From positions 8,052-72,051 of the forward strand of contig JBQCIO010000106.1 in assembly GCA_051953655.1 (NCBI GenBank): a stretch of DNA of 64,000 nt. Direction: 5' to 3'. The translations under genes and the position numbers were made by a program. How positions within the stretch are numbered: position 1 is the first letter of the stretch; each line of letters begins with the position of its first letter. Below are positions 5,078-45,891 of the stretch, in pieces. Below the pieces are notes generated by a model. It did no database searches and was not told the DNA's origin. It worked only from the letters and a program-made list of their open reading frames with translations. This DNA comes from Motilibacteraceae bacterium. Lineage in GTDB: Bacteria; Actinomycetota; Actinomycetes; Motilibacterales; Motilibacteraceae.

Positions 5078-6619
5078 TCACGACGTCGTCTCGCGCTTGT
5101 AGAGAATGTCCATCGAGTAGTACTTGACCTTGTTGGTCGTGTTGCTCAGGCCCCAGACCGGCAGCGGCCGGTAGTACATGGTCAGCTGGTTGTCGACCTG
5201 GGCCACGCCGCCGGCGTAGATCTGGCCGTAGTGGTCGGTGTTGTTGGCCTTGCGGATGGTGCAGGGCGAGTACAGCAGCTCATTGATCGTGCTGGAGATG
5301 CTCACCTGGTTGTCCAGGTTGATGCCCTGGCTGGTGCACGGGTGCGTGCTCACCGCGTTGTAGGGCTGGATCAGGTACAGATTCCGCGTCGTCGTGTTGG
5401 TGCTGGTGATCGTGAGCGTGTTGGAGATCGTGACGCCACCCGATGCGAACACGGCCAAGTTATTGTTCAGGCACACAGTCTTGTTGCCGCACGCGTTGTT
5501 CTTGTTGGGGTTCTGGATGACCACCTGGCAGCTCGTCAGCAGTACGGTGGGCCCGGAGAGGCTGTTCCCGTGGTCGACCATCCATTGCCCCGGTCCGTTC
5601 GAGCTGCTGCCCGAGTATCCGCAGTCGTTGTTCGTCACCACGTTCGTGTAGCCGTTGGCGGCCCATTGAGCCGCCGTGTTGCTGTCCCAGTTGAGGATCG
5701 GGAAGGCCTGGCTCGGCGGGTCGGAGACCACTCCGTTGCCGGTGGTGCACTTGCCGGGGTGGCTGGTGCACCAGCTGCTCGGCGAGACGCTCTGGGCGAT
5801 CACCTTGCCACCGATGGTGCCAGCGTCGATCTGTGCAGTGCCGCTGGAGACCTTGACGTCGCCGCTCACGGTGCTCTGCGGATTGGTCGAGTTGAACCCG
5901 GTCTTGGCCCAGGCGTCCACGTCGATGGTGCACGAGTTGGACAGCGAGATCGAGCCCTGGGCGTAGACCGACCCACGGAAGTGCTCGTTGTTCTGGCAGG
6001 CGAAGTTGCCGTTGGTGTAGATGTCCGCGTCTGGCGAGGTCCCCTGACCGTAGAGCTCGGTCTTGTTCGCGAGGGTCACCCCGGCGTCGCCGAAGATGGC
6101 CTTGTCCAGGCCCTGTGCGAAGGACGGCGTCAGGCGGACCTCGGACTCGATCGTCCGCACCGCGGGAGCCTGCCCGGCGATCGGAGTAGTGGTCGACGTG
6201 CTCTTGATCAGGGCGGTGGCAGCGGCGACGTTGGACGACGGGTTCTGCACATCACTGCAGCTGAGCTGGACACCGTTGACGTCGAAGTAGGTGACCGTGG
6301 TGGCGATGGTCATCGTGTCGGGCTTGGACTGCGTGTTCGTGACCGCCGTGGTGTCGCAGGGCAGTGTGGTGGGGTCCTGCTGCTGGATGGACGCCATCGC
6401 CACGTCCACCGCACCCTCGGCGCTGGTGATCGCCTCGCTGCGCTGCCGGTCGCGACCGGTTTGGGCGCTCTCGCGCAGCGTGAACACGAGCAGGGTGGCG
6501 ACGAACACCGAGACCAGGCCGACGATGGCGATGGCCATGACCAGGGCGACACCGTCGTCGGTGCCGGCGCGACCGCGCACCCCGACCGTCAGCCGAGCAC
6601 GCATGCTGGTTCTCCTCAT
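5078..6619 (-). CDS. PilX-N-domain pilus-associated protein (large, Ser/Thr/Asn-rich, probably a pilus tip or minor component)
   Basis: The track ORF is 5078-6640. I place the start at the ATG at 6619, which forms an ATGA overlap with the upstream stop. The N-terminus GVALVMAIAIVGLVSVFVATLLVFTL is a PilX-like hydrophobic helix without Glu5. The remaining ~480 aa are polar with repetitive beta-rich character. GC is visibly lower than the window average. Confidence 0.65.
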   Translation of the reverse strand: MRRTSMRARLTVGVRGRAGTDDGVALVMAIAIVGLVSVFVATLLVFTLRESAQTGRDRQRSEAITSAEGAVDVAMASIQQQDPTTLPCDTTAVTNTQSKPDTMTIATTVTYFDVNGVQLSCSDVQNPSSNVAAATALIKSTSTTTPIAGQAPAVRTIESEVRLTPSFAQGLDKAIFGDAGVTLANKTELYGQGTSPDADIYTNGNFACQNNEHFRGSVYAQGSISLSNSCTIDVDAWAKTGFNSTNPQSTVSGDVKVSSGTAQIDAGTIGGKVIAQSVSPSSWCTSHPGKCTTGNGVVSDPPSQAFPILNWDSNTAAQWAANGYTNVVTNNDCGYSGSSSNGPGQWMVDHGNSLSGPTVLLTSCQVVIQNPNKNNACGNKTVCLNNNLAVFASGGVTISNTLTITSTNTTTRNLYLIQPYNAVSTHPCTSQGINLDNQVSISSTINELLYSPCTIRKANNTDHYGQIYAGGVAQVDNQLTMYYRPLPVWGLSNTTNKVKYYSMDILYKRETTS

Positions 6620-9635: not shown

Positions 9636-10091
9636 CTAGTAGTCAGTGGTGGCAACGCAGTCGGCACCGTTGACGAGGCCCGCCTGGGCCGTGTACTTGA
9701 ACAGCTGGACGGAACCCTGCGTGTTCTGGACCGCGACGCACCAGTGGGTGGCGTCAGTGAAGTGCTGCGACTTGAGCGTCACATTCGCACTCGCGGCACC
9801 GATGTCCTGAGCCGTCGCCCCCGTGGTACCAGCCGTGAGCGTGTAGCGGCCACCAGTCGTGAGGGCGAGGGTCGGCGCCGTCGTGTTGTCGACGTAGTAG
9901 GTCGCCACCTCCTTGCCAATCGTGCTGACGTCAGCCTTCGCCGCCGTGTCCTGCGCCTTCTTGCGCTGGTTCAGGAAGACCGGGATGGCGATGGCGGCAA
10001 GGATGCCGATGATGATCATGACGACCAGGAGCTCGATGAGCGTGAAGCCCTGCTCCTTCTCGTCCATGGCCTTGCGGATGCGAGCGAGCAT
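9636..10091 (-). CDS. pilA: major type IV pilin (prepilin)
   Basis: Trimmed from track ORF 9636-10433 to the ATG at 10091. It reads MLARIRKAMDEKEQG|FTLIELLVVMIIIGILAAIAIPVFLNQRKKAQD. An ATG at 10067 (MDEKEQG|F) is an alternative start. It has a C-terminal Cys pair (HWCVAVQ...GADCVATTDY), is first in the pilin block and is preceded by a long leader. Confidence 0.88.
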   Translation of the reverse strand: MLARIRKAMDEKEQGFTLIELLVVMIIIGILAAIAIPVFLNQRKKAQDTAAKADVSTIGKEVATYYVDNTTAPTLALTTGGRYTLTAGTTGATAQDIGAASANVTLKSQHFTDATHWCVAVQNTQGSVQLFKYTAQAGLVNGADCVATTDY

Positions 10092-10169
10092 TCGCGTCTG
10101 TCCTTTCCGGACCGGATCGAGTGAGCGCCACGGACCCGGTCCTTGCCCAGTCGCAGTGCGACTGACCGA

Positions 10170-10260
10170 GGCAGCTGGGCCGGCCGCTCCAGGTGGAGCG
10201 CCCCCCTGGCTTTGCGGCCCCACCTCGCGGTGGGTGTGCCGTTTCTGGCCGTGGAGCTCG
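10170..10260 (-). ncRNA. candidate c-di-GMP-I (GEMM-I, type 2) riboswitch aptamer in the pilA 5' leader
   Basis: The minus-strand reading is CACGGCCAGAAAC-GGCACACC-CACC-GCGA-GGUG-GGGCCGCAAAGCC-AGGGGGGCGCUCC-ACCU-GGAGCGGCCGGCCC. Hairpin 1 (CCCACC/GGUGGG) has a GNRA (GCGA) loop. It is flanked 5' by GGCACACC and 3' by CCGCAAAGCC. These align with GGCAAACC...GAAA...GGGACGCAAAGCC of the V. cholerae Vc2 aptamer as I recall it. A second imperfect hairpin follows immediately. This is a visual alignment only; no covariance model was run. Confidence 0.4.
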
Positions 10261-10351
10261 ATGACATCCACGATGTCGGCGCTCTTTCGGCGGCGCTTAA
10301 GCATCCGAGAACGCGACGCTACGAACCACCCTCTCGGACTAGCCCTAACGG

Positions 10352-10390
10352 CTGTGGCCCCGACCAGTCGCACGACTGACGGGGCCACAG
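10352..10390 (-). terminator. 11-bp stem hairpin downstream of pilC
   Basis: CTGTGGCCCCG (10352-10362) pairs with CGGGGCCACAG (10380-10390). The loop itself contains the small palindrome CAGTCGCACGACTG. It lies about 80 nt after the pilC stop. Confidence 0.45.
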
Positions 10391-10469
10391 GAGCGTGACG
10401 ATGAGCAGGCGTCGCTAGCGGCGATGTCCTCAAGGCGGTATAACGACCGGTGAGGCACGACCCAGCGTC

Positions 10470-11693
10470 CTACTTGATGAGGTCAAACACCTTGAAGATG
10501 GGCATGTAGAGCGCGACGATCATCGATCCGATGATCCCGCCCAGGAAGGCGATCATCAGCGGCTCGATCAGGCTGGTGAGCGCCTCAGCTGTCGCCTCCA
10601 CCTCCTGGTCGTAGAAGTCAGAGATCTTGTGCAGCATGGTGTCAAGGGCGCCGGTGTCCTCGCCCACCGCCATCATCTGCACGACCATCGGTGGGAACAC
10701 CTTGTGCTGCTCAAGGGGCTTGGTCAGCGACTCGCCCTTCCGCACGCTCTCCTGGACGTCGCGCACTGCTCGTTCCAGGACGATGTTGCCCGTCGTGGCG
10801 GCGACGATCTCGAGGGACTGCAGGATCGGCACGCCGGAGCGCATCATGGTGCCGAGGTTCCGACTGAAACGGCTGAGTGCGATCTTCCCGAAGAGCGGGC
10901 CGAAGACCGGCATCTTCAGCTTGATGGGGTCCACGACGCTTCGGACGTTCTCCTGGTGCTTGACGCGTCGCCAGACGGCCACCCCGACGATCAGCCCGAC
11001 GAGGATGACCGGACCGAGCAGTTGGAGCGAATGCGAGAGGAAGACCAGCACACGGGTCGGCGCGGGCAGGGTGCCGCCCAGCTGGGCGAACATCTTTGCG
11101 AACACCGGCACGATGAACAGCAGCATGCCGATGACAGCGATGATCGACAGGACGAAGACGACCACCGGATACGTCATCGCCGACTTGATCTTGCCCTTGA
11201 GCTTGACCTCGGCCTCGTAGTTCTCGGCGATCTGCAGCAGGACTGAGTCGAGGAAGCCGCCAACCTCGCCGGCCCGGCACATGTTGACCATGAGCGGCGG
11301 GAAGGCCTTCGGGTGCTTCGCCATCGCCGCCGAGAGCGCGACGCCGGTCTCGACGTCGTTGCGGACCGAGGCGAGGACCTTGGCCAGCTCCTTGTTCTCG
11401 GTCTGGTTGGCGAGGATGTCCAACGCGCGCAGCAGGGACAGACCGGAGTTGATCATCGTCGCGAACTGGCGCGACATGACGGCGAGGTCCTTGAGCTTGA
11501 TCCGACCACCGAGACCAGGGATCTTGAGCTCGGTGTTCACGCCGGTGTTGGCCTTGGTGATGCTGACCGGCGCGTAGCCCATCTGCCGCAGCTTGTTGAC
11601 GACCGCGGCCTGCGACTCGGCCTCGAGCTTGCCGTTGACGATCTTCCCGGCCCGGTCGCGGACCGAGTACTGGAAGGTGGCGGTGGCTGCCAT
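10470..11693 (-). CDS. pilC: type IV pilus platform protein PilC (GspF family)
   Basis: Trimmed from 10470-11960 to the ATG at 11693. It reads MAATATFQYSVRDRAGKIVNGKLEAESQAAVVNKLRQMGYAPV, has two GspF repeats (LSRQFATMINSGLSLLRAL and FSRNLGTMMRSGVPILQSL) and TM segments. The C-terminus is ...MPIFKVFDLIK. Confidence 0.93.
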   Translation of the reverse strand: MAATATFQYSVRDRAGKIVNGKLEAESQAAVVNKLRQMGYAPVSITKANTGVNTELKIPGLGGRIKLKDLAVMSRQFATMINSGLSLLRALDILANQTENKELAKVLASVRNDVETGVALSAAMAKHPKAFPPLMVNMCRAGEVGGFLDSVLLQIAENYEAEVKLKGKIKSAMTYPVVVFVLSIIAVIGMLLFIVPVFAKMFAQLGGTLPAPTRVLVFLSHSLQLLGPVILVGLIVGVAVWRRVKHQENVRSVVDPIKLKMPVFGPLFGKIALSRFSRNLGTMMRSGVPILQSLEIVAATTGNIVLERAVRDVQESVRKGESLTKPLEQHKVFPPMVVQMMAVGEDTGALDTMLHKISDFYDQEVEATAEALTSLIEPLMIAFLGGIIGSMIVALYMPIFKVFDLIK

Positions 11694-13541: not shown

Positions 13542-15257
13542 TTACACGACGACGCGGAGGATCTCGTCGATGGACGTGACGCCCTGGCGCACCTTGTCCA
13601 TCCCGTCGTTCCGCAGCGTGATCATGCCCTGCTCGCGGGCGACCTCGCCGACGGCGGAGGCCGAGGCGCGCTCGACGCAGAGCCGCTCGATCTCCTCGGT
13701 GACCGGCATGACCTCGTGCAGCGCGAGCCGGCCCTTGTAGCCGGTTTTCGCGCACACCGAGCAGCCCACCGGGCGGAACAGCTCGGGCAGCTCCTCGCCG
13801 TCCTGCCACGGGTAGCGGGTGGACAGCAGCTGCTCCGGCGTCGGCGTGTAGGGCTCCTTGCACTTGCTGCACAGCCGGCGCGCGAGCCGCTGGGCCAGCA
13901 CGCAGTCAAGCGCGGAGCCGACGAGGAACGGCTCGATGCCCATCTCGGTCAACCGGGTCACCGCCGACGGCGCGTCGTTAGTGTGCAGCGTGGAGAGCAC
14001 GAGGTGACCGGTGAGGGCGGCCTCGACCGCGATCTGCCCGGTCTCGTGGTCACGGATCTCACCGATGAGCACGACGTCGGGGTCCGAGCGAAGGATCGAG
14101 CGCAGCGCCGCGGCGAACGTCAGGCCGGCCTTCTGGTTGGTCTGCACCTGGTTGATGCCCGGCAGCCGGTACTCGACCGGGTCCTCGACCGTGATGACGT
14201 TGATCTCCGGCCGGCTGACGATGTTCATCGTCGCGTAGAGCGTGGTCGACTTGCCCGAACCGGTCGGGCCGGTGACCAGGATCATCCCGTAGGGCTTGGT
14301 GAAGCTCACCGAGTAACGGTCGTAGTTGGACGGCGAGAAGCCGAGGTCGGCCAGGTCCAGCCGTGCGGTGGAGTTGTCCAGGATTCGCATGACGACCTTC
14401 TCGCCCCACACCGTGGGGAGGGTCGCGACGCGGAGGTCGACCTTCTTGCCGTGCGCGTTCACCGACAGGCGGCCGTCCTGCGGGATGCGCCGCTCGGCGA
14501 TGTTGATGTCCGCCATGATCTTGAGGCGGCTGATGACGCCGGACTGGATCGCCTTGGGCGAGCGCATGACCTCGTGCAGCACGCCGTCGATGCGGAAGCG
14601 CACCCGCAGGTCGTGCTCGGTCGGCTCGAGGTGGATGTCGGAGGCGCGGTCCTGGATGGCCTGGGTGATGAGCAGGTTGACGTACTTGACGATCGGCGCG
14701 TCCTCGACGATCTCCTTGACCTTGGAGAGGTCGTCCTCGTCCTCGGCCTGCGCGTCGAGCACGCTGGTGAGGTCGTCGAGGTCGGAGTCCGCGCGGTAGA
14801 AGCGGTCGATGGCCGCGAGCACGTCGCCGCGGGTGGCGACGACGGCGCGCACCTCCATGCCGGTGATGGAGCGCAGGTCGTCGATGGCGAAGACGTTGGC
14901 CGGGTCGGCCATCGCCACCAGCAGCCGGCCCTCCTCGAACCCGATCGGCAGCGCGGTGTGCCGGCGCGCGACGGTGCCGGGCACGCGGCCGATCGCGGAG
15001 CCGTCGACGGCGTAGTCGGTGAGCTCGACGAAGCGCAGCCCGATCTGCGTGGCCAGGGCGGCGACGAGCTGGGCCTCGGTGAGCACGCCGGAGTCGACCA
15101 GCACCCGACCGAGGCTGCGGCCCTGCCGCTGCTGCTCCTCGTAGGCGCCGACCAGCTGGTCCTCGCTGACCAATCCCCCCTCGAGGAGGATGTCGCCGAG
15201 CTGCTTCACCCCGCGCTCCCGTCCGTCACGTCGTCCACTCCACCATCGGGCGGACAC
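13542..15257 (-). CDS. pilB: type IV pilus extension ATPase PilB (GspE family)
   Basis: It has an N-terminal MshEN/GSPII_E_N-like region (LGDILLEGGLVSEDQL...LGRVLVDSGVLTEAQL), Walker A GPTGSGKSTT, and DPDVVLIGEIRDHET. It also has a tetracysteine motif (CSKC...CSVC). The more likely start is GTG 15209 (VKQLGDILL), which has GGGAG upstream. Confidence 0.93.
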   Translation of the reverse strand: MSARWWSGRRDGRERGVKQLGDILLEGGLVSEDQLVGAYEEQQRQGRSLGRVLVDSGVLTEAQLVAALATQIGLRFVELTDYAVDGSAIGRVPGTVARRHTALPIGFEEGRLLVAMADPANVFAIDDLRSITGMEVRAVVATRGDVLAAIDRFYRADSDLDDLTSVLDAQAEDEDDLSKVKEIVEDAPIVKYVNLLITQAIQDRASDIHLEPTEHDLRVRFRIDGVLHEVMRSPKAIQSGVISRLKIMADINIAERRIPQDGRLSVNAHGKKVDLRVATLPTVWGEKVVMRILDNSTARLDLADLGFSPSNYDRYSVSFTKPYGMILVTGPTGSGKSTTLYATMNIVSRPEINVITVEDPVEYRLPGINQVQTNQKAGLTFAAALRSILRSDPDVVLIGEIRDHETGQIAVEAALTGHLVLSTLHTNDAPSAVTRLTEMGIEPFLVGSALDCVLAQRLARRLCSKCKEPYTPTPEQLLSTRYPWQDGEELPELFRPVGCSVCAKTGYKGRLALHEVMPVTEEIERLCVERASASAVGEVAREQGMITLRNDGMDKVRQGVTSIDEILRVVV

Positions 15258-15649: not shown

Positions 15650-16237
15650 TCAGGCCCGCACCGCTTCGGCCTCGAGCTGGTCGAGGACGCCGAACAGCAG
15701 GGACAGCACCACGTTTTTCACCGACTCGCGGTCGGTCGCGTCGCACGGCACGATCGCCACGCTGCCGTCGACGTCGAGCGCGGCCCGTACCTGCTGCTCC
15801 ACGGCCGGGTCCAGCGACGCGGCGCGGTTGAGCGCCACCACGAACGGCACGGTGGCCATGGCGCGGAAGGCGTCGAGGATGCCGCGGCCCTCGGCGAAGG
15901 ACTCGGGGCGGGAGGCGTCCAGGAGCAGGACGTAGCCGAGCATCCCCTCGCCGAGGATCTCCCACATGAAGTCGAAACGCTCCTGCCCGGGCGTGCCGAA
16001 CAGGTAGAGGACGAGCTCGCGGTCGATGGTGATCCGGCCGAAGTCCATCGCGACGGTGGTCTCGGCCTTGCGGGCGCGCTCGCTGCCGTCGCTGGTGCCG
16101 CGTTCGGTGCTGAGCACGGTGATCTCGCTGATGGTGCGGATCAGCGTGGTCTTGCCGGCCGCGTAGGGGCCGGTCACCACCACCTTGACCGCCTGGCCGC
16201 CGTGCCGGCGCCGGGGGCGTCCCTGCCGTGCGGTCAC
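15650..16237 (-). CDS. small Ras-like GTPase, MglA/CvnD (COG2229-like) family
   Basis: 195 aa with P-loop VVVTGPYAAGKTTLI and a switch-I-like region ETTVAMDFGRI. Switch II is LFGTPGQERF; the TPGQ form replaces DxxG, as in MglA-type GTPases. The degenerate G4 motif is VVALNRA. Its GTG start abuts the TAG stop of the upstream gene (TAGGTG). Confidence 0.85.
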   Translation of the reverse strand: MTARQGRPRRRHGGQAVKVVVTGPYAAGKTTLIRTISEITVLSTERGTSDGSERARKAETTVAMDFGRITIDRELVLYLFGTPGQERFDFMWEILGEGMLGYVLLLDASRPESFAEGRGILDAFRAMATVPFVVALNRAASLDPAVEQQVRAALDVDGSVAIVPCDATDRESVKNVVLSLLFGVLDQLEAEAVRA

Positions 16238-17524
16238 CTAGAGACCCCTCACGCCGGCGATGAGACGAAGCATGAGGCTGCGGTTGATGCTCGGGTCCCG
16301 CTCGACCATCGGGGCGCGGTCGGCCGCCATCGCGACGCTGCCGACCACTCCCCCGACCGACGGGGTGCGGGTGGGCAGCGGCGGCAGGGCGGCGCGGGCG
16401 GCCGCGAGCTCGTTCTCGCGCTCGTCGGTGTCGTGCTCCGGGCGGCGCTGGGGCAGGAACGGCTCGGGGCGCGGCGGGATGACGTCGCGCTCGGACGGGG
16501 GCACGAACGGCTGCCCGACCGGCTGCGGAGGAAGGTGCGGCTCGGGGCCCCAGTCGCCGTTCCAGTCGTCGGCGGAGCCATTGGAGTCAGCAGCCTCGTC
16601 GTCCCAGACCTCGACCTGCGGCTCCTCGCCGGGGTCGTCGGGCTGCTCGTCGGGCTGGTCGCCCGGCTCGGTCCCGTTCTCGACGGCGGCGAGGTCGGCC
16701 CGGTCCGCCCGGGCCTCAGCGAAAGGGGGCGCCTCCGGAGCGGGGGCCAGGGGCACTCGCAGGGTGGGCCGTTCCAGGCCGTCGACGACGGCGAGCCGGC
16801 GGGATCGGGCATCGCCGGCGGCGGCGCCGTCGGCGGGCGCGGCCAGACCGCGGCGCTGCAGCTCGCCGAGGGCGGTGAGCACGGTGACCGGGCTGTCTCC
16901 GGCCAGCTCGACGACGTCGGCCACCGTGCGGTGCCCGTCGAGCAGCGCCAGCAGCGCCCACTCCTGCGGCTCGGCGGTCACGGCCTCGGCCACCGGGGCG
17001 AGGCGCAGCACGGCGTCGAGCGGCACCGAGGCGGACAGCGCCTCCCAGGCGGCGGCGCGCTCGCGGGCGGCGGCGACCAGCTGGTCGACCGGCAGGCCGA
17101 GCGAGAGACCCTCCGGCTCGAGCTCGTCGGCGTCGAGGGCGAACTCGCCCTCGTTCCAGTCGAGCAGGTCCACCACGGCGTCGACGGCGTGCTCGCGGGC
17201 CAGCGCCGACACGGCGTCAGAGCCCAGTGCGCCGGCGTCGAGCAGCGAGCGGAGCACTCCTCCCCCAGCACCGACCGCCACCGCTCCGGCGACGGCCGTG
17301 GCCAGGGCGGCGTCGTCGACCGGCAGGGCGGCTACGACGCGGCGTAGGAGGGTGGGGCGGGACAGGTCGGCGCTGGCGTTGGCGACCAGCCCGGCGTCGA
17401 ACCAGACCGCGCCCTCGAGGCCGTCGGCCGCGCGAACGCGCAGTCCACCGGTCTTGCGGGTGGCGGCGAGCAGCTGGAAGACGTCGGGGAGTCCGAACGC
17501 GTCCAGCGAGCCCTCGAGCTTCAC
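16238..17524 (-). CDS. DUF4388 (PATAN)-domain protein with a wHTH-like middle region, acidic Pro-rich linker and conserved-looking C-terminal helix
   Basis: 428 aa. The N-terminus MKLEGSLDAFGLPDVFQLLAATRKTGGLRVR...WNEGEFALD matches my recollection of the DUF4388/PATAN consensus. The middle region LLALLDGHRTVADVVELAGDSPVTVLTALGELQRRGL resembles the wHTH of conservon DUF742 proteins. A DE/P-rich disordered stretch follows, and the protein ends ...SINRSLMLRLIAGVRGL. Confidence 0.75.
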   Translation of the reverse strand: MKLEGSLDAFGLPDVFQLLAATRKTGGLRVRAADGLEGAVWFDAGLVANASADLSRPTLLRRVVAALPVDDAALATAVAGAVAVGAGGGVLRSLLDAGALGSDAVSALAREHAVDAVVDLLDWNEGEFALDADELEPEGLSLGLPVDQLVAAARERAAAWEALSASVPLDAVLRLAPVAEAVTAEPQEWALLALLDGHRTVADVVELAGDSPVTVLTALGELQRRGLAAPADGAAAGDARSRRLAVVDGLERPTLRVPLAPAPEAPPFAEARADRADLAAVENGTEPGDQPDEQPDDPGEEPQVEVWDDEAADSNGSADDWNGDWGPEPHLPPQPVGQPFVPPSERDVIPPRPEPFLPQRRPEHDTDERENELAAARAALPPLPTRTPSVGGVVGSVAMAADRAPMVERDPSINRSLMLRLIAGVRGL

Positions 17525-17566
17525 GGCGGCCTCGTCTGCGTGCAGGTGGGGTGGGACGGGAAGGGA

Positions 17567-18193
17567 CTACCAGGCCGGCGGCGGCGTGGGGTGCCCGTTG
17601 ACCGGCTGTCCGTTCACGGGCTGGCCGTTGAGCACGGGCGCTGCCTGCTGCGGGGCCCACTCGCCGGCCGGCCAGCCGGTGCCCGGAGCGCGGTCGGCGG
17701 TCTTCTCGGCGTAGGCGGGCTCGTAGGGGACGGCCGCGGCGGCGACGCCCTCGAGCACCTCGGCGGCCTCGTCCAGCGAGGTGAACGGGTCGTCGGCGCG
17801 CAGGGCGGCGGCCACCGCGGCGGCGGCGTGGCGGACCTCGTAGAGCATCAGACCGGTCTTGGCGCCCTTGGCGGCCACGGCCACCAGGACGGCCTCGTCG
17901 TCGGCGGAGACCAGGAAGACGGTGCCCTCCTCGGCCTCGACGAAGACCTGCGACAGGTCGCCGCGGCCCAGGCCCTCGGCGGCCCGCTCGCCCAGCGAGA
18001 GCAGCGCGGCGCTCATCGCGGCCACCCGGTCCTCGTCCATGAACGGCGGCAGCGCCGAGGCCATCGGCAGGCCGTCGAAGGTGACGACCGCGGCGGCCTC
18101 GAGCTCGGGGGCCTGCGCGAGCAGGTCACCCAGCACGCGGGCCAGCCGGGAGGCCCGGCCGGGGCCGGCAGGCAGGTCGTACGACTCGGGCAC
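17567..18193 (-). CDS. Roadblock/LC7 (MglB/CvnB-like) protein with a Pro-rich repeat tail
   Basis: Trimmed from 17567-18355 to GTG 18193, which has GAAGAGG 6 nt upstream. The core reads LARVLGDLLAQAPELEAAAVVTFDGLPMASAL...LSQVFVEAEEGTVFLVSADDEAVLVAVAAKGAKTGLMLYEV. The tail reads ...VLNGQPVNGQPVNGHPTPPPAW. Confidence 0.8.
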   Translation of the reverse strand: MPESYDLPAGPGRASRLARVLGDLLAQAPELEAAAVVTFDGLPMASALPPFMDEDRVAAMSAALLSLGERAAEGLGRGDLSQVFVEAEEGTVFLVSADDEAVLVAVAAKGAKTGLMLYEVRHAAAAVAAALRADDPFTSLDEAAEVLEGVAAAAVPYEPAYAEKTADRAPGTGWPAGEWAPQQAAPVLNGQPVNGQPVNGHPTPPPAW

Positions 18194-18322
18194 GGGGCAC
18201 CTCTTCGCTGCGCGGGGCGCACCCGTCGGCGCGCCGTCACCCCTCCCATCGGCCGGGCGGTGGCTCGTCTTGACCCTGCTGAACGGGCTACCTGCGGCGA
18301 GCGTTACAGGGGGCAAGTCCAT

Positions 18323-18418
18323 TTCGGAACGATCACGTCCCCGCGATCGATTCATGCTTACCGCGCCAGATCTGTCGCGGTAAGCAGGTAAGGACCACGC
18401 CCCCGTGATCGTTCCGAA
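18323..18418. repeat. 96-nt nested inverted-repeat element in the aroE / Roadblock intergenic region
   Basis: The outer arms are a perfect 15 bp: TTCGGAACGATCACG (18323-18337) and CGTGATCGTTCCGAA (18404-18418). The inner hairpin has a perfect 9-bp stem, CTTACCGCG (18357-18365) and CGCGGTAAG (18376-18384), with the loop CCAGATCTGT. Confidence 0.7.
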
Positions 18419-18431
18419 CGGGCCCGGGGGG

Positions 18432-19271
18432 TCAGGCGCGGGCGGCGAGGGCGCGCTCGCCGGCGGCGCGCATGACGTCGACCAGGCGACCGGTCCCGTC
18501 GGCGGGCTCCTGGCCGGTCATCAGGGCGACCTGCAGGACCGCCTGGTGGACCAGCAGGTCCAGGCCGCCGACGACGAGGCCGCCGGAGCGCTGCCAGGCC
18601 GCGGCCAGGGCGGTGGGCCAGGGGTGGTAGACGACGTCGAAGAGGGTGCGCGGCGCGATAGGCAGGGCGGCCGCCAGGCCGGCGGCGGCGTCGCCGGGGA
18701 CGGTGCTGACCACCAGGTCGCGGGCGAGCAGGCCGCTGGAAGGGTCGGCCGCCTCGGCCCAGGGGCGGACGTCCGGCCGCACCCCCAGCCGGGCCGCGGC
18801 GTCGAGCAGCTCGCCCACCGCCTCCGGCCGGCGCACGACGACGGCCGCCTCGCGGACCCCGAGGTCGGACAGCGCGGCCAGCGCGGAGGTGGCGGTCGCT
18901 CCCCCGCCGACAACGGTGGCCGACGCCGCACCGAAGACCCCGCGCTCGCGCAGCGCCGCCACCATGCCAGGGACGTCGGTGTTCGCCCCCAGCCGGCGAC
19001 CTCGGCCGAGCACGACCGTGTTCACCGCGTGCACCTGCCGGGCCAGCGGGCTGACCCAGTCCAGCAGCGGGATGACCGCGCGCTTGAGCGGCATGGTGAG
19101 CGACAGCCCGGCCCACGAGGCGTCCAGCCCGGCGAGGAACCCCGGGAGATCGGTCTCCGTCACGTCGTAGGAGTCGTAGCTCCAGTCCAGCCCGAGCTCG
19201 GCGTAGGCGGCGCGGTGCAGCACCGGGGACAGGCTGTGGGCGATCGGCGACCCGAGGACGGCGGCTCTCAC
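18432..19271 (-). CDS. aroE: shikimate dehydrogenase
   Basis: Trimmed from 18432-20594 to GTG 19271, which forms a GTGA overlap with the mltG stop. It reads [28 protein letters not shown]...SLTMPLKRAV...HAVNTVV...GANTDVPG...VVGGGATATSA. Confidence 0.9.
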   Translation of the reverse strand: MRAAVLGSPIAHSLSPVLHRAAYAELGLDWSYDSYDVTETDLPGFLAGLDASWAGLSLTMPLKRAVIPLLDWVSPLARQVHAVNTVVLGRGRRLGANTDVPGMVAALRERGVFGAASATVVGGGATATSALAALSDLGVREAAVVVRRPEAVGELLDAAARLGVRPDVRPWAEAADPSSGLLARDLVVSTVPGDAAAGLAAALPIAPRTLFDVVYHPWPTALAAAWQRSGGLVVGGLDLLVHQAVLQVALMTGQEPADGTGRLVDVMRAAGERALAARA

Positions 19272-43584: not shown

Positions 43585-45822
43585 TCAGGAGGCGACAGCC
43601 GCGCGGGCCTGCAGGTCCGCCCCCAGCAGCCCGGCCAGGTGCGCCAGGTCCACCGGTCTGGACCACAGGAACCCTTGCCCCAGCGGACATCCCATCGCTG
43701 CCAGCACCGACGCCTGCTCCGGGTGCTCCACGCCCTCGGCCACGATCTGCAGCCCCAGGCTGCGGCCCAGCGTGACGATCGCCTCGGCCACCGCGGTGTC
43801 CTCCCCGCCGTGCTGCACCCGGTCCACGAACGCCTTGTCGATCTTCAGGACGTCGAGCGGCAGGTCGTGCAGGTACGACAGGGACGAATAGCCGGTGCCG
43901 AAGTCGTCCACGGCGATCCGGACCCCGTGCTCGCGCAGCGCGCGCAGCCGGGCGACGACGCCGGGCAGGTCCTCGAGCAGGGCCGACTCGGTCACCTCGA
44001 GCACCAGCAGCTCGGGCGCCAGCCGGGCGGCCCGCAGCGCTTCCACGACGTCGTCGACGAGGGAGTCCTCGGTCAGCTGGCGGGCAGCCACGTTCACGCT
44101 CATCCGCAGCGACCGGTCCGGCCGCTGCAGCCCTGCAGCCGTGCGGCAGGCCTCCTGCAGCACCCAGCGCCCGAGCGGAACGACGAGCCCGGTCTCCTCG
44201 GCCAGAGGCACGAACTCCAGCGGTGGCACCATCCCTCGCTCCGGGTGCGGCCAGCGCACCAGCGCCTCCAGACCCCGGAGCTCGCCGGTCTCGAGCGACA
44301 CGATCGGCTGGTAGTGCACGGTGAGCTTGCCCTCGCGCAGCGCGTGCTGCAGGTCTGCGCGCAGGTCCAGCCGGCGCATCGCCTCCTCGTGCATGCGCTG
44401 CTCGAAGACCGTGTAGGTCCCTCCCCGGCGTCCCTTGGACAGGTACATCGCGACGTCCGCGTTGCGCAGCAACGCCTCCGCGGTGTCCGTGCCCGGGTGG
44501 CCCAGCGCGATGCCGACGCTCGCCCCGACCGACACCTCGACGCCCTCCACCACGACGCCGGGGGCCAGCGCCTCGGCCAGCCGGGTGGCGCTCGCCTCGG
44601 CGTCGGCGAGGCGCACGTCCTCGAGCAGGACGGCGAACTCGTCGCCACCGAAGCGCGCGATCGTGTCGCCCGCCCGGACCGAATCGCGCAGCCGTTGAGC
44701 CACCGCGACCAGCACCTGGTCCCCGGCCGCGTGGCCGAGTCCGTCGTTGACCGCCTTGAAGTCGTCGAGGTCGCAGAAGAGCACGGCGACGTCGCCGGTC
44801 CCCCGCCGCTCCAGGGCGTGCGCCAGCCGGTCGCCGAACAGCACCCGGTTGGCCAGGCCGGTGAGCGGGTCGTGGAAGGCCTGGTGGGCCAGGCGTTCCT
44901 CCAGCGCCGCACGCTCGGAGACGTCCCGCACGGTGACCACGAGCCCGTCCACCGCGGCGGAGTCGAAGTGGTTGCGGATGCTCCCCTCCACCGGCACGGT
45001 GCTGCCGTCCGGGCGGCGGACCCGCAGCGACAGCTCCTCGCCGGCACCGACGCAGGCGCTGCCCAGCAGCGCGACGAACGTGGCGACGTCCGGGTCGTCC
45101 ACCAGCTCCACCCAGCGGGTGCCGACCAGGTGCTCGGGGTCGCGGCCCAGCACGGCGAGAGCCGACGGGCTGGCGTAGGCGATGGTCGAGTCGGCGTCGA
45201 CCACGCACACGACGTCGACGCCGTCCTCCACCAGCGCGCGGAACCGGGCCTGGCTGGCCACCAGCGCCTCCTGCTCGGCGACGAGCCGGGCCGCGGCCCG
45301 CCGGTCGCGCACGAAGCGGCGGAAGGTGAACGACCAGAGCACGGTCGCGAACAGCACGACCCCGGCGACGCCGAGCTCGGCGATCCAGCGCCAGCGTCCG
45401 GCGCGGTCGGACAGCTTGCCGTCCAGCACGTCCAGCCGCACCCGCACGTCGTTCAGCGCGGCGACGGACTGCTGGGGCGTCGCGGTGCTGAGCACGGTGG
45501 CCGCCTGCCGCGAGGGGGCGAGCAGCCGGTCGGGCACGCCCTCGCGGTGCAGGGCGTCGAGCCCGGCGACGACCCAGGCGGCGGTGGCCCCCTGGGTGGC
45601 CGGCTCGAGGCTGCCGTCGCCGCGGTGCGGGACGGCGGCCTGCTGCTGCACCCCGGCGGCCAGGCGCACGTACTCGACCTGGTCGCGCACCGCGCCGGTC
45701 GACTGGCTCACGAGCGCGACCAGGCCGCCGATCTCGAGCACGACGAGCAGCGCCGACACGGCGAGCTGCACGACGAGCCGGCGCGTCTCACCGTGGGCGG
45801 CCCCGGGCGCAGAGGTCGGCAC
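43585..45822 (-). CDS. membrane sensor PAS-GGDEF-EAL protein (c-di-GMP cyclase/phosphodiesterase)
   Basis: 745 aa with two TM segments flanking an extracytoplasmic region, then a PAS domain (FRALVEDGVDVVCVVDADSTIAYASPS). The intact GGDEF motif is ARFGGDEFAVLL, preceded by DPLTGLANR. The EAL domain has LEALVRWPHPERG, VNVAARQL and DDFGTGYSSLSYL. Confidence 0.93.
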   Translation of the reverse strand: MPTSAPGAAHGETRRLVVQLAVSALLVVLEIGGLVALVSQSTGAVRDQVEYVRLAAGVQQQAAVPHRGDGSLEPATQGATAAWVVAGLDALHREGVPDRLLAPSRQAATVLSTATPQQSVAALNDVRVRLDVLDGKLSDRAGRWRWIAELGVAGVVLFATVLWSFTFRRFVRDRRAAARLVAEQEALVASQARFRALVEDGVDVVCVVDADSTIAYASPSALAVLGRDPEHLVGTRWVELVDDPDVATFVALLGSACVGAGEELSLRVRRPDGSTVPVEGSIRNHFDSAAVDGLVVTVRDVSERAALEERLAHQAFHDPLTGLANRVLFGDRLAHALERRGTGDVAVLFCDLDDFKAVNDGLGHAAGDQVLVAVAQRLRDSVRAGDTIARFGGDEFAVLLEDVRLADAEASATRLAEALAPGVVVEGVEVSVGASVGIALGHPGTDTAEALLRNADVAMYLSKGRRGGTYTVFEQRMHEEAMRRLDLRADLQHALREGKLTVHYQPIVSLETGELRGLEALVRWPHPERGMVPPLEFVPLAEETGLVVPLGRWVLQEACRTAAGLQRPDRSLRMSVNVAARQLTEDSLVDDVVEALRAARLAPELLVLEVTESALLEDLPGVVARLRALREHGVRIAVDDFGTGYSSLSYLHDLPLDVLKIDKAFVDRVQHGGEDTAVAEAIVTLGRSLGLQIVAEGVEHPEQASVLAAMGCPLGQGFLWSRPVDLAHLAGLLGADLQARAAVAS

Positions 45823-45891
45823 GTCCTTGTCATCGGCATGCGCGACGCGAGCCTGAGCGGCAGCCGGCTCAGGCGGACCTGGTGTCGACAG

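What the first reader, a model, noticed from the sequence alone, without database searches (positions are those of the whole stretch)
10092..10469. Candidate c-di-GMP-I (GEMM-I) riboswitch in the 378-nt leader of the major pilin gene
The pilC stop (10470) and the pilA start (10091) are separated by an unusually long non-coding stretch in an otherwise tightly packed operon.

Read on the minus strand, 10260-10170 gives ...GGCACACC CACC GCGA GGUG GGGCCGCAAAGCC AGGGGGGCGCUCC ACCU GGAGCGGCCGGCCC... The layout is:
- a 6-bp hairpin (CCCACC/GGUGGG) capped by a GNRA (GCGA) tetraloop;
- a 5' flank GGCAcACC and a 3' flank CCGCAAAGCC;
- a second imperfect hairpin immediately after.

This is the order, spacing and near-identical conserved sequence of the GEMM-I core as I remember it from the V. 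cholerae Vc2 aptamer (CAGGGCAAACCAUUC-GAAA-GAGUGGGACGCAAAGCCUCCGG...). A GYRA loop without an 11-nt receptor would make it a type-2 GEMM.

Downstream there is a 7-bp hairpin (CAGUCGC-ACU-GCGACUG) and a GUCC-GGAAA-GGAC hairpin that would occlude the likely SD (GGAAAGGA, about 9 nt before the ATG). This is a plausible expression platform. c-di-GMP riboswitches are known upstream of pilin genes in other phyla (class II in C. difficile pilA1). A PAS-GGDEF-EAL enzyme is encoded in this window. Riboswitch control of an actinobacterial T4 pilin would be notable.
Basis: partly seen in the sequence, partly recalled or inferred. Interest (0 to 1): 0.8.

Follow-up and report, generated by a model that had tools for sequence, protein, structure and literature searches.

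The report
c-di-GMP riboswitch before actinobacterial pilin
The long leader in front of the major type IV pilin gene holds a genuine, canonical class I cyclic-di-GMP riboswitch that is conserved in dozens of related Actinomycetota, so pilin production in this group is probably tied directly to the c-di-GMP second messenger through RNA.

Summary
Rfam's curated model RF01051 (c-di-GMP-I) hits window 10250-10167 (- strand) at 42.0 bits against a cut-off of 35. It is the only Rfam hit in the 64 kb. The sequence carries the equivalents of the ligand contacts G20, A47 and C92 and of the interhelical C-G pair. It has a GYRA tetraloop without a receptor (GEMM "type 2").

The element is not a chance match. 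58 of 80 related pilC loci from diverse Actinomycetota carry it at the same place, about 150 nt before a pilin that starts MLARIRK. 92.8% of cells pair, against 24-46% in slid registers, and 10 of 21 pairs show compensatory changes.

New details:
- a conserved WhiG/FliA-type promoter ends about 22 nt upstream of the aptamer, so pilA probably has its own transcript that begins at the riboswitch;
- a covarying outer helix (P0) joins the 5' end of the leader to a GGCUC box just upstream of the Shine-Dalgarno sequence (SD).

There is no U-tract terminator, so control is most likely translational. The direction (ON or OFF) is not resolved for the family; in this window the models lean weakly to ON. 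This is a new member of a well-known riboswitch class in an undescribed but unsurprising gene context.

The parts
10470..11690 (-). pilC (platform protein), the upstream gene. Its stop marks the start of the 378-nt leader.
   Evidence: Pfam T2SSF, E = 8.9e-68; ORF list.
10352..10390 (-). Strong stem-loop about 80 nt after the pilC stop: 11-bp outer stem CUGUGGCCCCG/CGGGGCCACAG with an inner stem. Probably the 3' end structure or terminator of the pilBTC transcript (inferred).
   Evidence: Present in the minimum-free-energy (MFE) fold of the leader; sequence read. No U-tract follows.
10273..10301 (-). WhiG/FliA (sigma-28 family)-type promoter-like box: -35 CTTAAG (10301-10296), 15-nt spacer, -10 GCCGACAT (10280-10273). 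It predicts a transcription start near 10266-10262.
   Evidence: The pattern T[CAT]AA-N14-16-N[CT]CGA occurs in 48 of 58 loci (shuffled mean 0.7). The strict pattern CTCA-N16/17-NCCGA occurs in 32 of 58 (shuffled mean 0.2). It always ends 18-29 nt before the aptamer. Published consensus: WhiG1 CTCA-N16-17-GCCGAACT, WhiG2 T(A/C)AA-N16-GCCGATAA (PMC12871210). The start site itself is inferred, not measured.
10261..10266 (-). Conserved TGTCAT box at or near the predicted 5' end of the mRNA. Function unexplained.
   Evidence: Conserved columns in leader alignment A2 and in the upstream listing.
10251..10259 (-). P0 5' strand, GAGCUCCAC. It abuts P1 with no linker.
   Evidence: RNAalifold predicts the outer helix. 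On A2, P0 and P1 counted together are 84% paired vs 24-39% in slid registers; P0 alone is 79.9% paired, and 6 of its pairs have changes on both sides.
10167..10250 (-). c-di-GMP-I (GEMM-I) aptamer. P1 is GGCCAG (10250-10245) with CUCGGUC (10170-10164). The first hairpin is 10239-10214 with a GCGA tetraloop. The AAA linker is 10213-10211. The second hairpin is 10211-10173. Equivalents of key residues: G20 = 10240, C44 = 10216, A47 = 10213, G83 = 10180, C92 = 10171.
   Evidence: RF01051: 42.0 bits, cut-off 35, model positions 1-87. Own model R1: 80.6 bits. Covariation. Residue roles from PMC5888326, PMC4744006 and PMC6140456. Residue mapping is by alignment columns 12, 36, 39, 74 and 83 of A1.
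10148..10164 (-). Hairpin HP immediately 3' of P1 (CAGUCGC-ACU-GCGACUG). It shares 1-2 nt with the P1 3' strand. A hairpin is present at this position in the leaders inspected, with different sequences (none was found in L053).
   Evidence: The closest relative L001 has GACGC-GCAA-GCGUC at the same place. No U-tract follows. No hairpin found in L053.
10133..10142 (-). Purine-rich 'box1' (GGACCGGGUC). It can pair with 10118-10109 (GAUCCGGUCC, 10 bp), an alternative to the SD hairpin that encloses the P0 3' strand in its loop.
   Evidence: Present in the MFE and constrained folds. A G-rich box after HP is conserved in A2. The pairing itself has no statistical support family-wide.
10123..10131 (-). 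P0 3' strand, GUGGCGCUC (family consensus GCGGCUCAC).
   Evidence: Near-invariant GG(C/U)UCAC box in A2; pairing statistics.
10098..10112 (-). Ribosome-binding region: hairpin GUCC(10112-10109)/GGAC(10103-10100), SD AAGGA (10105-10101). AGGaCAG (10104-10098) is complementary to the aptamer 3' strand CUGCCU (10174-10169).
   Evidence: Sequence. In the local folding model the SD is 0.39 unpaired when the aptamer 3' strand is free and 0.92 when it is locked, which ranks in the top 4% of lock positions.
9636..10091 (-). pilA, the major type IV pilin (MLARIRKAMDEKEQG|FTLIELLVV...) and the regulated gene.
   Evidence: Pfam N_methyl, E = 2.3e-9. A pilin with the same N-terminus follows the element in all complete loci.

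Best explanation
Window 10250-10167 (- strand) is a functional class I cyclic-di-GMP riboswitch aptamer (GEMM-I, 'type 2' with a GYRA tetraloop). It lies in the 5' untranslated leader of the major type IV pilin gene pilA.

Shown:
- family membership by the curated model;
- conservation of every ligand-contacting and tertiary-contact nucleotide;
- conservation and covariation in 58 related pil loci;
- a fixed position about 150 nt upstream of the pilin start codon;
- the leader is non-coding.

Inferred:
- pilA is transcribed from its own WhiG/FliA-type promoter (10301-10273), so the mRNA starts about 12-15 nt before the aptamer;
- c-di-GMP binding closes P1 (10250-10245 with 10170-10164), which stacks directly on an outer helix P0 (10259-10251 with 10131-10123);
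- this repartitions the downstream strands (hairpin HP, purine-rich box1, the P0 3' strand, the anti-SD and the SD) and changes access of the ribosome to AAGGA (10105-10101) and the AUG. Control is therefore translational, not by intrinsic termination.

For this window the most likely direction is ON. Without ligand, the aptamer's own 3' strand CUGCCU (10174-10169), which includes the C92 equivalent, can pair with AGGaCAG across the SD. Ligand binding takes that strand away.

My sub-confidences: genuine c-di-GMP-I riboswitch acting in cis on pilA, about 0.9; translational level, about 0.6; ON direction, about 0.5.
For: Rfam RF01051 scores 42.0 bits vs cut-off 35 over the full model, and is the only Rfam hit in 64 kb.

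The alignment shows GGCA (G20), CGCAAAGC (C44, A47), an invariant bulged G (G83) and GCUGCC (C92). The G20-C44-A47 spacing matches the Vc1 numbering G12/C36/A39 given, and the contact roles come. That G83 lies 9 nt before C92 in Vc2 I recall from memory; the papers read here do not state it.

A PilC-anchored scan found 80 loci. A clade model finds a full-length copy (54-98 bits) in 58 of them, on the pilC strand, 67-324 nt after pilC in 55. A pilin starting MLARIRK..G|FTLIELLVV follows at a near-constant distance.

On a MAFFT alignment, 92.8% of cells pair vs 24-46% in slid registers, and 10 of 21 pairs have changes on both sides; 0 of 500 shuffles reach the observed percentage paired, the count of pairs or of cells changed on both sides, or the covariation score (the count of further pair types is reached by 184 of 500). 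Rfam's own models recover 19 of 20 diverse loci.

The leader is non-coding: the G20-to-ATG distance falls in all three phases (17/12/12) and 17 of 41 leaders have in-frame stops.

Promoter. P0. No terminator-like site on the minus strand. Actinomycetota riboswitches tend to be translational (PMC12452182).

ON lean for the window. A PAS-GGDEF-EAL enzyme in the window shows the organism makes or degrades c-di-GMP.
Against: No binding or expression experiment exists.

Whole-leader equilibrium modelling shows no consistent ligand-dependent change in SD accessibility (34 of 41 leaders unchanged). The family-wide rise in SD accessibility in the local model is no greater than for arbitrary locked windows (p = 0.5).

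The SD hairpin has only 4 bp. The downstream pairings differ between lineages.

The window's bit score (42) is among the lowest in the family, because its second hairpin is unusually G-rich and can slip register.

About 18 related pilC loci with ample downstream sequence lack the element, so it is not obligatory for this pilus system.

The transcription start is predicted, not mapped. Read-through from pilC cannot be excluded.
Confidence: 0.85

Rival explanations
1. Same riboswitch, opposite sign: c-di-GMP turns pilin translation OFF. Ligand-closed P1 stacks on P0 and stabilises it. P0 is topologically incompatible with the box1:anti-SD helix (10142-10133 with 10118-10109), because the P0 3' strand sits in that helix's 14-nt loop. 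The anti-SD GUCC would then be left to pair with the SD. This would act in the same direction as the known RsiG-(c-di-GMP)-WhiG switch, in which high c-di-GMP shuts off WhiG-dependent pilus genes.
For: P0 is conserved and covaries, and abuts P1 with no linker. The box1:anti-SD helix appears in folds of the window and of the L003-type leaders. The promoter is WhiG-type, and c-di-GMP-armed RsiG sequesters WhiG, which controls type IV pili in Rubrobacter (PMC8325347).
Against: In the window, enforcing the aptamer raises rather than lowers predicted SD accessibility (0.44 to 0.80; 0.39 to 0.92). The SD hairpin has only 4 bp. Box1:anti-SD complementarity is not better than shuffled controls family-wide, although the test was flawed. 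Whether this organism has RsiG or a WhiG2 is unknown. PilB carries an MshEN domain, which in other bacteria links c-di-GMP to pilus assembly.
Confidence: 0.3
2. The aptamer is real, but it controls transcript elongation or stability rather than ribosome binding. HP (10164-10148), extended by pairing of CCUC with the G-run after it, would act as a U-tract-less terminator or Rho/RNase entry switch. Alternatively, P0 protects the mRNA 5' end from 5'-end-dependent RNases when ligand is bound.
For: A hairpin of conserved position but variable sequence follows P1 in nearly all leaders. In the local model the free CCUC strand pairs mainly with the G-run after HP in about 24 of 41 leaders. P0 would sequester the predicted 5' end.
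Against: No T-run follows HP in any leader inspected, and the terminator scan finds nothing on this strand. The distance to the SD and the conserved SD-proximal boxes argue for a translational read-out. There is no direct evidence for RNase or Rho involvement.
Confidence: 0.15
3. It is a specificity variant of GEMM-I, either the 'c-di-GMP-I-GGC' type or a cGAMP-sensing GEMM-Ib, and does not sense c-di-GMP.
For: The sister model RF03167 (GGC) scores slightly higher than RF01051 on the window (45.6 vs 42.0 bits). Three related loci pass that model's cut-off. Some related leaders have A or C in the G20 column.
Against: RF03167 is below its cut-off of 59 on the window. The nucleotide that distinguishes the two consensus sequences (CGCGAAGC vs CGCAAAGC) is the canonical A in the window and in all related copies. 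The G20 column is G in the window (10240); A at that position is what confers cGAMP or dual specificity. The higher RF03167 score most likely reflects that this model includes P1 and is G+C-rich.
Confidence: 0.04
4. Chance resemblance or decayed relic. The leader is long for other reasons: a pilC terminator, protein-binding inverted repeats, or an N-terminally extended pilin ORF (the mechanical ORF 9636-10433).
For: An open frame runs through the leader in the window. The aptamer alone does not fold better than shuffles in MFE terms (z = -0.86). CAGUCG..CGACUG palindromes occur twice in the leader.
Against: The curated-model hit is above threshold. The element is conserved in 58 loci with compensatory changes. 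The reading frame is not conserved. The HP palindrome sequence is not conserved even in the 97%-identical relative, whereas the hairpin is.
Confidence: 0.01

Closest known systems
Vibrio cholerae Vc2 / Vc1 c-di-GMP-I (GEMM-I) riboswitches (Rfam RF01051)
   Same: Same fold and family: a 2-bp plus 6-bp first hairpin with a GNRA loop, an AAA linker, a second hairpin, and a P1 closing helix. The G20, A47 and C92 ligand contacts and the interhelical C-G pair are all present. It sits in the 5' leader of a surface- or adhesion-related gene.
   Different: The tetraloop is GCGA (GYRA) with no 11-nt receptor and a bulged RG near the base of P2 ('type 2' in PMC1950547), whereas Vc2 has GAAA plus a receptor. 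The sequence is very G+C-rich. There is an additional covarying outer helix P0 that encloses the aptamer plus a hairpin. The host is an actinobacterium.
Clostridioides difficile pilA1 c-di-GMP-II riboswitch (Cdi2_4)
   Same: A c-di-GMP-sensing riboswitch directly upstream of the major type IV pilin gene of a monoderm bacterium. [quoted passage not shown]
   Different: It belongs to a different, structurally unrelated aptamer class (II); RF01786 gives no hit here. From my own knowledge, the C. difficile switch works by transcription antitermination (ON). Here no terminator is present and control is probably translational.
GEMM-I / GEMM-Ib upstream of pilus assembly genes in Geobacter
   Same: The same aptamer family associated with pilus genes (pilM, pilO, pilQ, pulF and others are listed in PMC1950547).
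   Different: Those Geobacter riboswitches carry A at position 20 and sense cGAMP; the window has G20. Their targets are assembly genes in a diderm proteobacterium, not the major pilin of an actinobacterium.
RsiG-(c-di-GMP)-WhiG sigma/anti-sigma switch controlling type IV pili in Rubrobacter, and WhiG/FliA-driven pilus genes in Actinoplanes
   Same: c-di-GMP-linked control of type IV pilus genes in Actinomycetota. The promoter upstream of this riboswitch matches the WhiG/FliA consensus.
   Different: That switch is protein-based and acts on transcription initiation. The element here is an RNA sensor acting after initiation. Neither paper mentions a riboswitch.

Membership tests
c-di-GMP-I riboswitch (GEMM-I, Rfam RF01051) | Score at or above the curated gathering threshold of the family covariance model, over the full model | tested here: met
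   42.0 bits vs 35, model positions 1-87 of 87, window 10250-10167 (-). Related loci score 48-61 bits.
c-di-GMP-I riboswitch (GEMM-I, Rfam RF01051) | [quoted passage not shown] | tested here: met
   GC/GC 2-bp stem, ACA internal loop, CCCACC/GGUGGG stem, GCGA loop, AAA at 10213-10211, second hairpin 10211-10173. Description in PMC1950547.
c-di-GMP-I riboswitch (GEMM-I, Rfam RF01051) | Ligand-contacting nucleotides G20, A47 and C92 (Vc2 numbering) | tested here: met
   G 10240, A 10213, C 10171 by alignment. The G-to-A spacing of 27 nt is as in Vc2 and Vc1. These positions are invariant in the 43-sequence alignment, though G20 was imposed there by the selection regex; it varies in 4 copies found only by the model.
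c-di-GMP-I riboswitch (GEMM-I, Rfam RF01051) | Universally conserved interhelical Watson-Crick C-G pair (C44-G83 in Vc2) | tested here: met
   C 10216 (column 36) and the bulged G 10180 (column 74, 9 nt before the C92 equivalent) are both invariant in A1. The feature is described in PMC4744006. The pairing itself is inferred from position, and the 9-nt G83-to-C92 spacing in Vc2 is recalled from memory.
c-di-GMP-I riboswitch (GEMM-I, Rfam RF01051) | Covariation supporting the helices in homologues | tested here: met
   92.8% paired vs 24-46% slid; 10 of 21 pairs have double changes; 0 of 500 shuffles reach the observed percentage paired, double-change counts or covariation score.
c-di-GMP-I riboswitch (GEMM-I, Rfam RF01051) | 5' regulatory configuration relative to a gene | tested here: met
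   Same strand as pilA, 76 nt from the aptamer end to the ATG. It holds the same position in all complete loci. A conserved promoter-like box lies upstream. The transcription start is not mapped.
c-di-GMP-I riboswitch (GEMM-I, Rfam RF01051) | Selective binding of c-di-GMP and ligand-dependent gene control | not testable with these tools
   Needs in-line probing or ITC and reporter assays.
GEMM 'type 2' subtype | GYRA tetraloop, no 11-nt tetraloop receptor, sometimes a bulge near the base of P2 | tested here: met
   The GCGA loop is GYRA. Across the family the loops include GCGA, GUGA, GCAA and GUAA (GYRA) as well as GAGA, GGGA and GGAA (GRRA). No receptor-like motif is present in the second hairpin. 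An (A/C/G)G bulge is conserved at columns 73-74.
c-di-GMP-I-GGC variant (Rfam RF03167) | Gathering score of the model, and G instead of A at the A47-equivalent (consensus CGCGAAGC) | tested here: not met
   45.6 bits vs 59. The window reads CGCAAAGC. I derived the meaning of the variant name by comparing the two Rfam consensus lines, not from a paper.
cGAMP riboswitch (GEMM-Ib) | Adenine at the G20 position | tested here: not met
   G at 10240; criterion from PMC6140456. Four related loci (L002, L054, L067 with A; L059 with C) do differ at this column.
c-di-GMP-II riboswitch (Rfam RF01786) | Match to the family covariance model | tested here: not met
   No match in 9900-10700 even at E <= 10, nor in the whole window at the gathering score.

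The most novel reading that the evidence does not exclude
In a broad set of Actinomycetota (the Frankiales, Motilibacterales, Sporichthyales and Mycobacteriales grade and relatives), type IV pilus production could be wired to c-di-GMP at up to three levels at once:
- a WhiG-family promoter that may be gated by the c-di-GMP-armed anti-sigma factor RsiG;
- a GEMM-I riboswitch at the very 5' end of the pilA mRNA;
- an MshEN-type domain in the PilB ATPase.

The riboswitch would be the first c-di-GMP-sensing RNA with a defined target in this phylum. It would use an unusual expression platform in which an outer 'clamp' helix (P0) pairs the mRNA 5' end with the sequence just upstream of the SD. Sister lineages with A at the G20 position would then be pilin riboswitches retuned to cGAMP or to dual specificity, outside the Geobacter lineage.
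Probability: 0.2. Interest if true: 0.6.

Novelty: new member of a known kind. Interest (0 to 1): 0.4.

Why it matters
c-di-GMP signalling in Actinomycetota is so far understood through protein effectors, such as the RsiG-WhiG switch read. I found no paper in the searchable library that describes a c-di-GMP riboswitch controlling an actinobacterial pilin.

This element gives a direct, testable RNA link between c-di-GMP and the major pilin in many mostly uncultured soil and freshwater actinobacteria. It sits behind a WhiG-type promoter, so it offers a natural system for asking how sigma-factor and riboswitch layers of the same second messenger combine.

Practically, it is a compact, G+C-rich, receptor-less GEMM-I aptamer with many natural variants. 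These could serve as c-di-GMP sensors in high-G+C hosts.

It does not change what is known about the riboswitch class itself. Standard Rfam-based annotation would already flag it.

Tried and rejected
1. Whole-leader equilibrium folding, unconstrained vs aptamer plus P1 enforced, for 41 leaders. SD accessibility was essentially unchanged in 34 of 41. My 'apo' constraint also probably forced both P1 strands to be single-stranded, so that column is unreliable. I did not use it to infer direction.

2. A four-strand relay hypothesis (P1-3' CCUCG, then box1 CGAGGGAC, then anti-SD GUCC, then SD GGAC), tested with duplex energies against shuffles. The first script crashed. The second used an automatic hairpin finder that mis-set the box1 boundaries in many leaders. 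The z-scores were near 0, so the hypothesis is not supported, and it was not properly tested either.

3. A local model of the segment downstream of the aptamer gave an apparently significant ON trend (p = 9e-5). The positional control showed that locking arbitrary windows does about as much family-wide (p = 0.5). I keep the result only for the window and a few relatives, where the effect is position-specific.

4. The sigma-70 promoter scan found nothing in the leader. The promoter is of the sigma-28/WhiG type instead.

5. The only terminator-like hit (10073-10096) is on the + strand inside pilA and is irrelevant.

6. MFE folding of the isolated aptamer gives z = -0.86. Thermodynamic stability alone does not reveal the element in this G+C-rich background, and the MFE does not reproduce the family's second helix.

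7. I considered pairing of the 5' CGAGC box with GCUCG in pilin codons 2-4, which is seen in several MFE folds. It is only 5 bp and cannot be tested by covariation because the coding sequence is invariant. Left as an aside.

8. I considered that the CAGUCG..CGACUG palindromes are DNA operators. I rejected this for HP because the closest relative keeps the hairpin but not the sequence.
Full report
**Observation.** The minus strand between the PilC ORF (T2SSF; ends 10470) and the pilin ATG (10091) is a 378-nt non-coding leader.
- the CCCACC-GCGA-GGUGGG hairpin (10234-10219);
- the GGCACACC and CCGCAAAGCC flanks;
- a second imperfect hairpin (10211-10173);
- the CAGUCGC-ACU-GCGACUG hairpin (10164-10148);
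- a GUCC-GGAAA-GGAC hairpin over the Shine-Dalgarno (SD) sequence AAGGA (10105-10101).

The window holds a complete type IVa pilus cluster: pilB with an MshEN domain, pilT, pilC, pilA, four further N_methyl proteins, pilD, pilM and pilO. It also holds the PAS-GGDEF-EAL protein at 43585-45891.

**Family assignment.** A scan of the whole window against Rfam 15 at gathering thresholds gives exactly one hit: RF01051 (c-di-GMP-I) at 10250-10167 (-), 42.0 bits vs 35, over the full model. At permissive thresholds the sister model RF03167 (c-di-GMP-I-GGC) scores 45.6 bits but misses its own cut-off of 59. The one consensus position that separates the two models (CGCGAAGC vs CGCAAAGC) is the canonical A here. 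RF01786 (class II) gives nothing.

G20, A47 and C92 contact the ligand, and a C-G interhelical pair is universally conserved. In my alignment the equivalents are G 10240, A 10213, C 10171, C 10216 and G 10180. The G20-C44-A47 spacing matches the Vc1 numbering; the G83-to-C92 spacing in Vc2 I recall from memory. G at the G20 position argues for c-di-GMP rather than cGAMP specificity. The GCGA loop, the absence of a receptor and the bulge near the base of the second hairpin fit the GYRA subtype described with the original GEMM motif.

**Comparative evidence.** Using PilC as the anchor, I fetched 80 loci from species-representative genomes. Nearly all are Actinomycetota MAGs. The closest is a Motilibacteraceae bin (97% PilC identity); the others are at 70-78%.
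- A strict core regex found the element in 43 loci.
- A covariance model built from these found full-length copies in 58 of 80 loci and only one in the window.
- The copies lie on the pilC strand, 67-324 nt after pilC in 55 loci. All are followed, at a near-constant distance, by a pilin beginning MLARIRK..G|FTLIELLVV.
- On the MAFFT alignment, which was not fitted to the structure, 92.8% of cells pair against 24-46% for slid registers. 10 of 21 pairs show changes on both sides. No shuffle out of 500 reaches the observed percentage paired, double-change counts or covariation score.
- Rfam's curated models independently recover 19 of 20 diverse loci.
- The leader is not coding: the distance from G20 to the ATG falls in all three phases, and 17 of 41 leaders have in-frame stops.

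A chance match, a relic and an extended ORF are therefore excluded.

**Promoter.** Upstream of the aptamer there is a conserved CTCAAG-N15-GCCGAnnn box. In the window it reads CTTAAG (10301-10296) and GCCGACAT (10280-10273). It matches the published WhiG1 (CTCA-N16-17-GCCGAACT) and WhiG2 (T(A/C)AA-N16-GCCGATAA) consensus sequences. It occurs in 48 of 58 loci with a loose pattern (shuffled mean 0.7) and in 32 of 58 with a strict pattern (shuffled mean 0.2). It always ends 18-29 nt before the aptamer.

WhiG/FliA-family sigma factors are known to drive type IV pilus genes in Rubrobacter and Actinoplanes. I infer that pilA has its own transcript starting about 12-15 nt before the aptamer, near a conserved TGTCAT box. 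A strong stem-loop after pilC (10390-10352) is consistent with a separate upstream transcript. The start site is not mapped.

**Expression platform.** No T-run follows any hairpin, and the terminator scan is empty on this strand. Actinomycetota riboswitches tend to be translational.

The leader alignment shows, after P1:
- a hairpin of fixed position but variable sequence;
- a purine-rich box (GCGAGGGAC or related);
- a near-invariant GG(C/U)UCAC box;
- the SD region.

RNAalifold predicts, and pair counts support, an outer helix P0 between GAGCC(GC) just 5' of P1 and the GGCUC box. Counted together with P1 it is 84% paired vs 24-39% slid, and six of its pairs have double changes. In the window P0 is 10259-10251 with 10131-10123, and it abuts P1 with no linker.

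The window also offers two other pairings: a 10-bp alternative helix (10142-10133 with 10118-10109) whose loop contains the P0 3' strand, and a pairing between the aptamer's own 3' strand CUGCCU (10174-10169) and AGGaCAG across the SD.

**Direction of the switch.**
- Whole-leader modelling gave no consistent answer.
- A local model suggested that removing the P1 3' strand opens the SD. A positional control showed this is not specific family-wide.
- It is specific for the window (SD unpaired 0.39 to 0.92; top 4% of positions) and for its nearest relative.

I therefore lean to ON for this window with about even odds. The OFF model (the P0 clamp, coherent with RsiG-WhiG logic) remains a serious rival.

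**Comparison and novelty.** By every testable criterion this is a member of the c-di-GMP-I family. Pilus genes were among the first GEMM-associated functions noted, and a class II c-di-GMP riboswitch controls the major pilin in C. difficile.

What I could not find described is this conserved riboswitch-pilA unit in Actinomycetota, its pairing with a WhiG-type promoter, or the P0 outer helix. It is a new member of a known kind. It is of moderate interest, mainly to people working on actinobacterial c-di-GMP signalling and type IV pili.

Noticed in passing
L079:1445-1522, L071:5163-5248, L062:4291-4375: These copies pass the gathering score of Rfam RF03167 (c-di-GMP-I-GGC; 59.7-61.5 bits vs 59) although they carry the canonical CGCAAAGC, not the variant's CGCGAAGC. 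The GGC model seems to cross-hit G+C-rich canonical GEMM-I sequences, so automatic annotation could mislabel them.
   Followed up: partly
L002:1519-1596, L054:4389-4470, L067:4387-4467, L059:4454-4536: In these pilA-leader copies the G20-equivalent column is A (L002, L054, L067) or C (L059). G20A is the change that gives cGAMP or dual specificity in GEMM-Ib. These may be pilin riboswitches with altered ligand preference.
   Followed up: partly
L071:4325-4413 and 5161-5249; L008:4456-4544 and 5222-5310: Two loci carry tandem duplications of the whole unit (riboswitch plus pilin gene). Each pilin paralogue keeps its own near-identical riboswitch.
   Followed up: no
window 13542-15257 (-), N-terminus of PilB: PilB has an MshEN domain (Pfam E = 3.4e-22). 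By eye it contains both 24-residue c-di-GMP-binding motifs with the exact 5-residue spacer (..KQLGDILLEGGLVSEDQLVGAYEEQ-QRQGR-SLGRVLVDSGVLTEAQLVAALATQ..). The leading Arg of each motif is replaced by Q or S, with a basic residue one position earlier (motif from PMC5013675). This is a possible second c-di-GMP input to the same pilus. Not tested.
   Followed up: partly
window 10352-10390 (-) and 10148-10164 (-): The stem-loop after pilC has an inner CAGUCG-(UG)-CGACUG palindrome that nearly repeats the hairpin CAGUCGC-ACU-GCGACUG just after the aptamer. It may be coincidence or a shared protein or RNA partner. The second one is not sequence-conserved in L001.
   Followed up: partly
window 10261-10266 (-): A TGTCAT(C) box 4-5 nt upstream of the P0 5' strand is conserved in most loci. 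It lies at the predicted transcription start. None of the helices I tested explains it.
   Followed up: no
window 10080-10091 (-) and the same codons in all loci: The first pilin codons ATG CTC GCT CGC are almost invariant at the nucleotide level, including a GCT or GCA alanine codon where, from general knowledge, GCC/GCG would be expected in such G+C-rich genomes (codon usage was not measured here). GCUCG there is complementary to the conserved 5' CGAGC box and pairs with it in several MFE folds. This could be an alternative partner for the P0 5' strand, or simply selection for weak structure at the start codon.
   Followed up: partly
L038 (CALQPL010000171.1) and L048 (JANLPG010000111.1): Short contigs labelled 'Bifidobacterium breve' MAG and 'Gemmatimonadota' MAG carry pilC-riboswitch-pilA loci nearly identical to those of freshwater or soil actinobacterial MAGs (L037/L044 and L046). 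They are probably mis-binned contigs.
   Followed up: no
window 15650-18517 (-): Directly upstream of pilB lie a small Ras-like GTPase (196 aa; called from its P-loop sequence, not Pfam-scanned), a DUF4388 protein and a Roadblock/LC7 protein. From my own knowledge this trio recalls MglA/MglB-type polarity modules that steer type IV pili in Myxococcus, or actinobacterial conservons.
   Followed up: no
L006, L010, L012, L022, L030, L031, L034, L055, L057, L060, L061, L073-L075, L078 and others: About 18 related pilC loci with at least 1.6 kb of downstream sequence have no copy of the riboswitch, including Kineosporiaceae and Angustibacter bins. The element is common but not universal in this pilus lineage. 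What replaces it was not examined.
   Followed up: no
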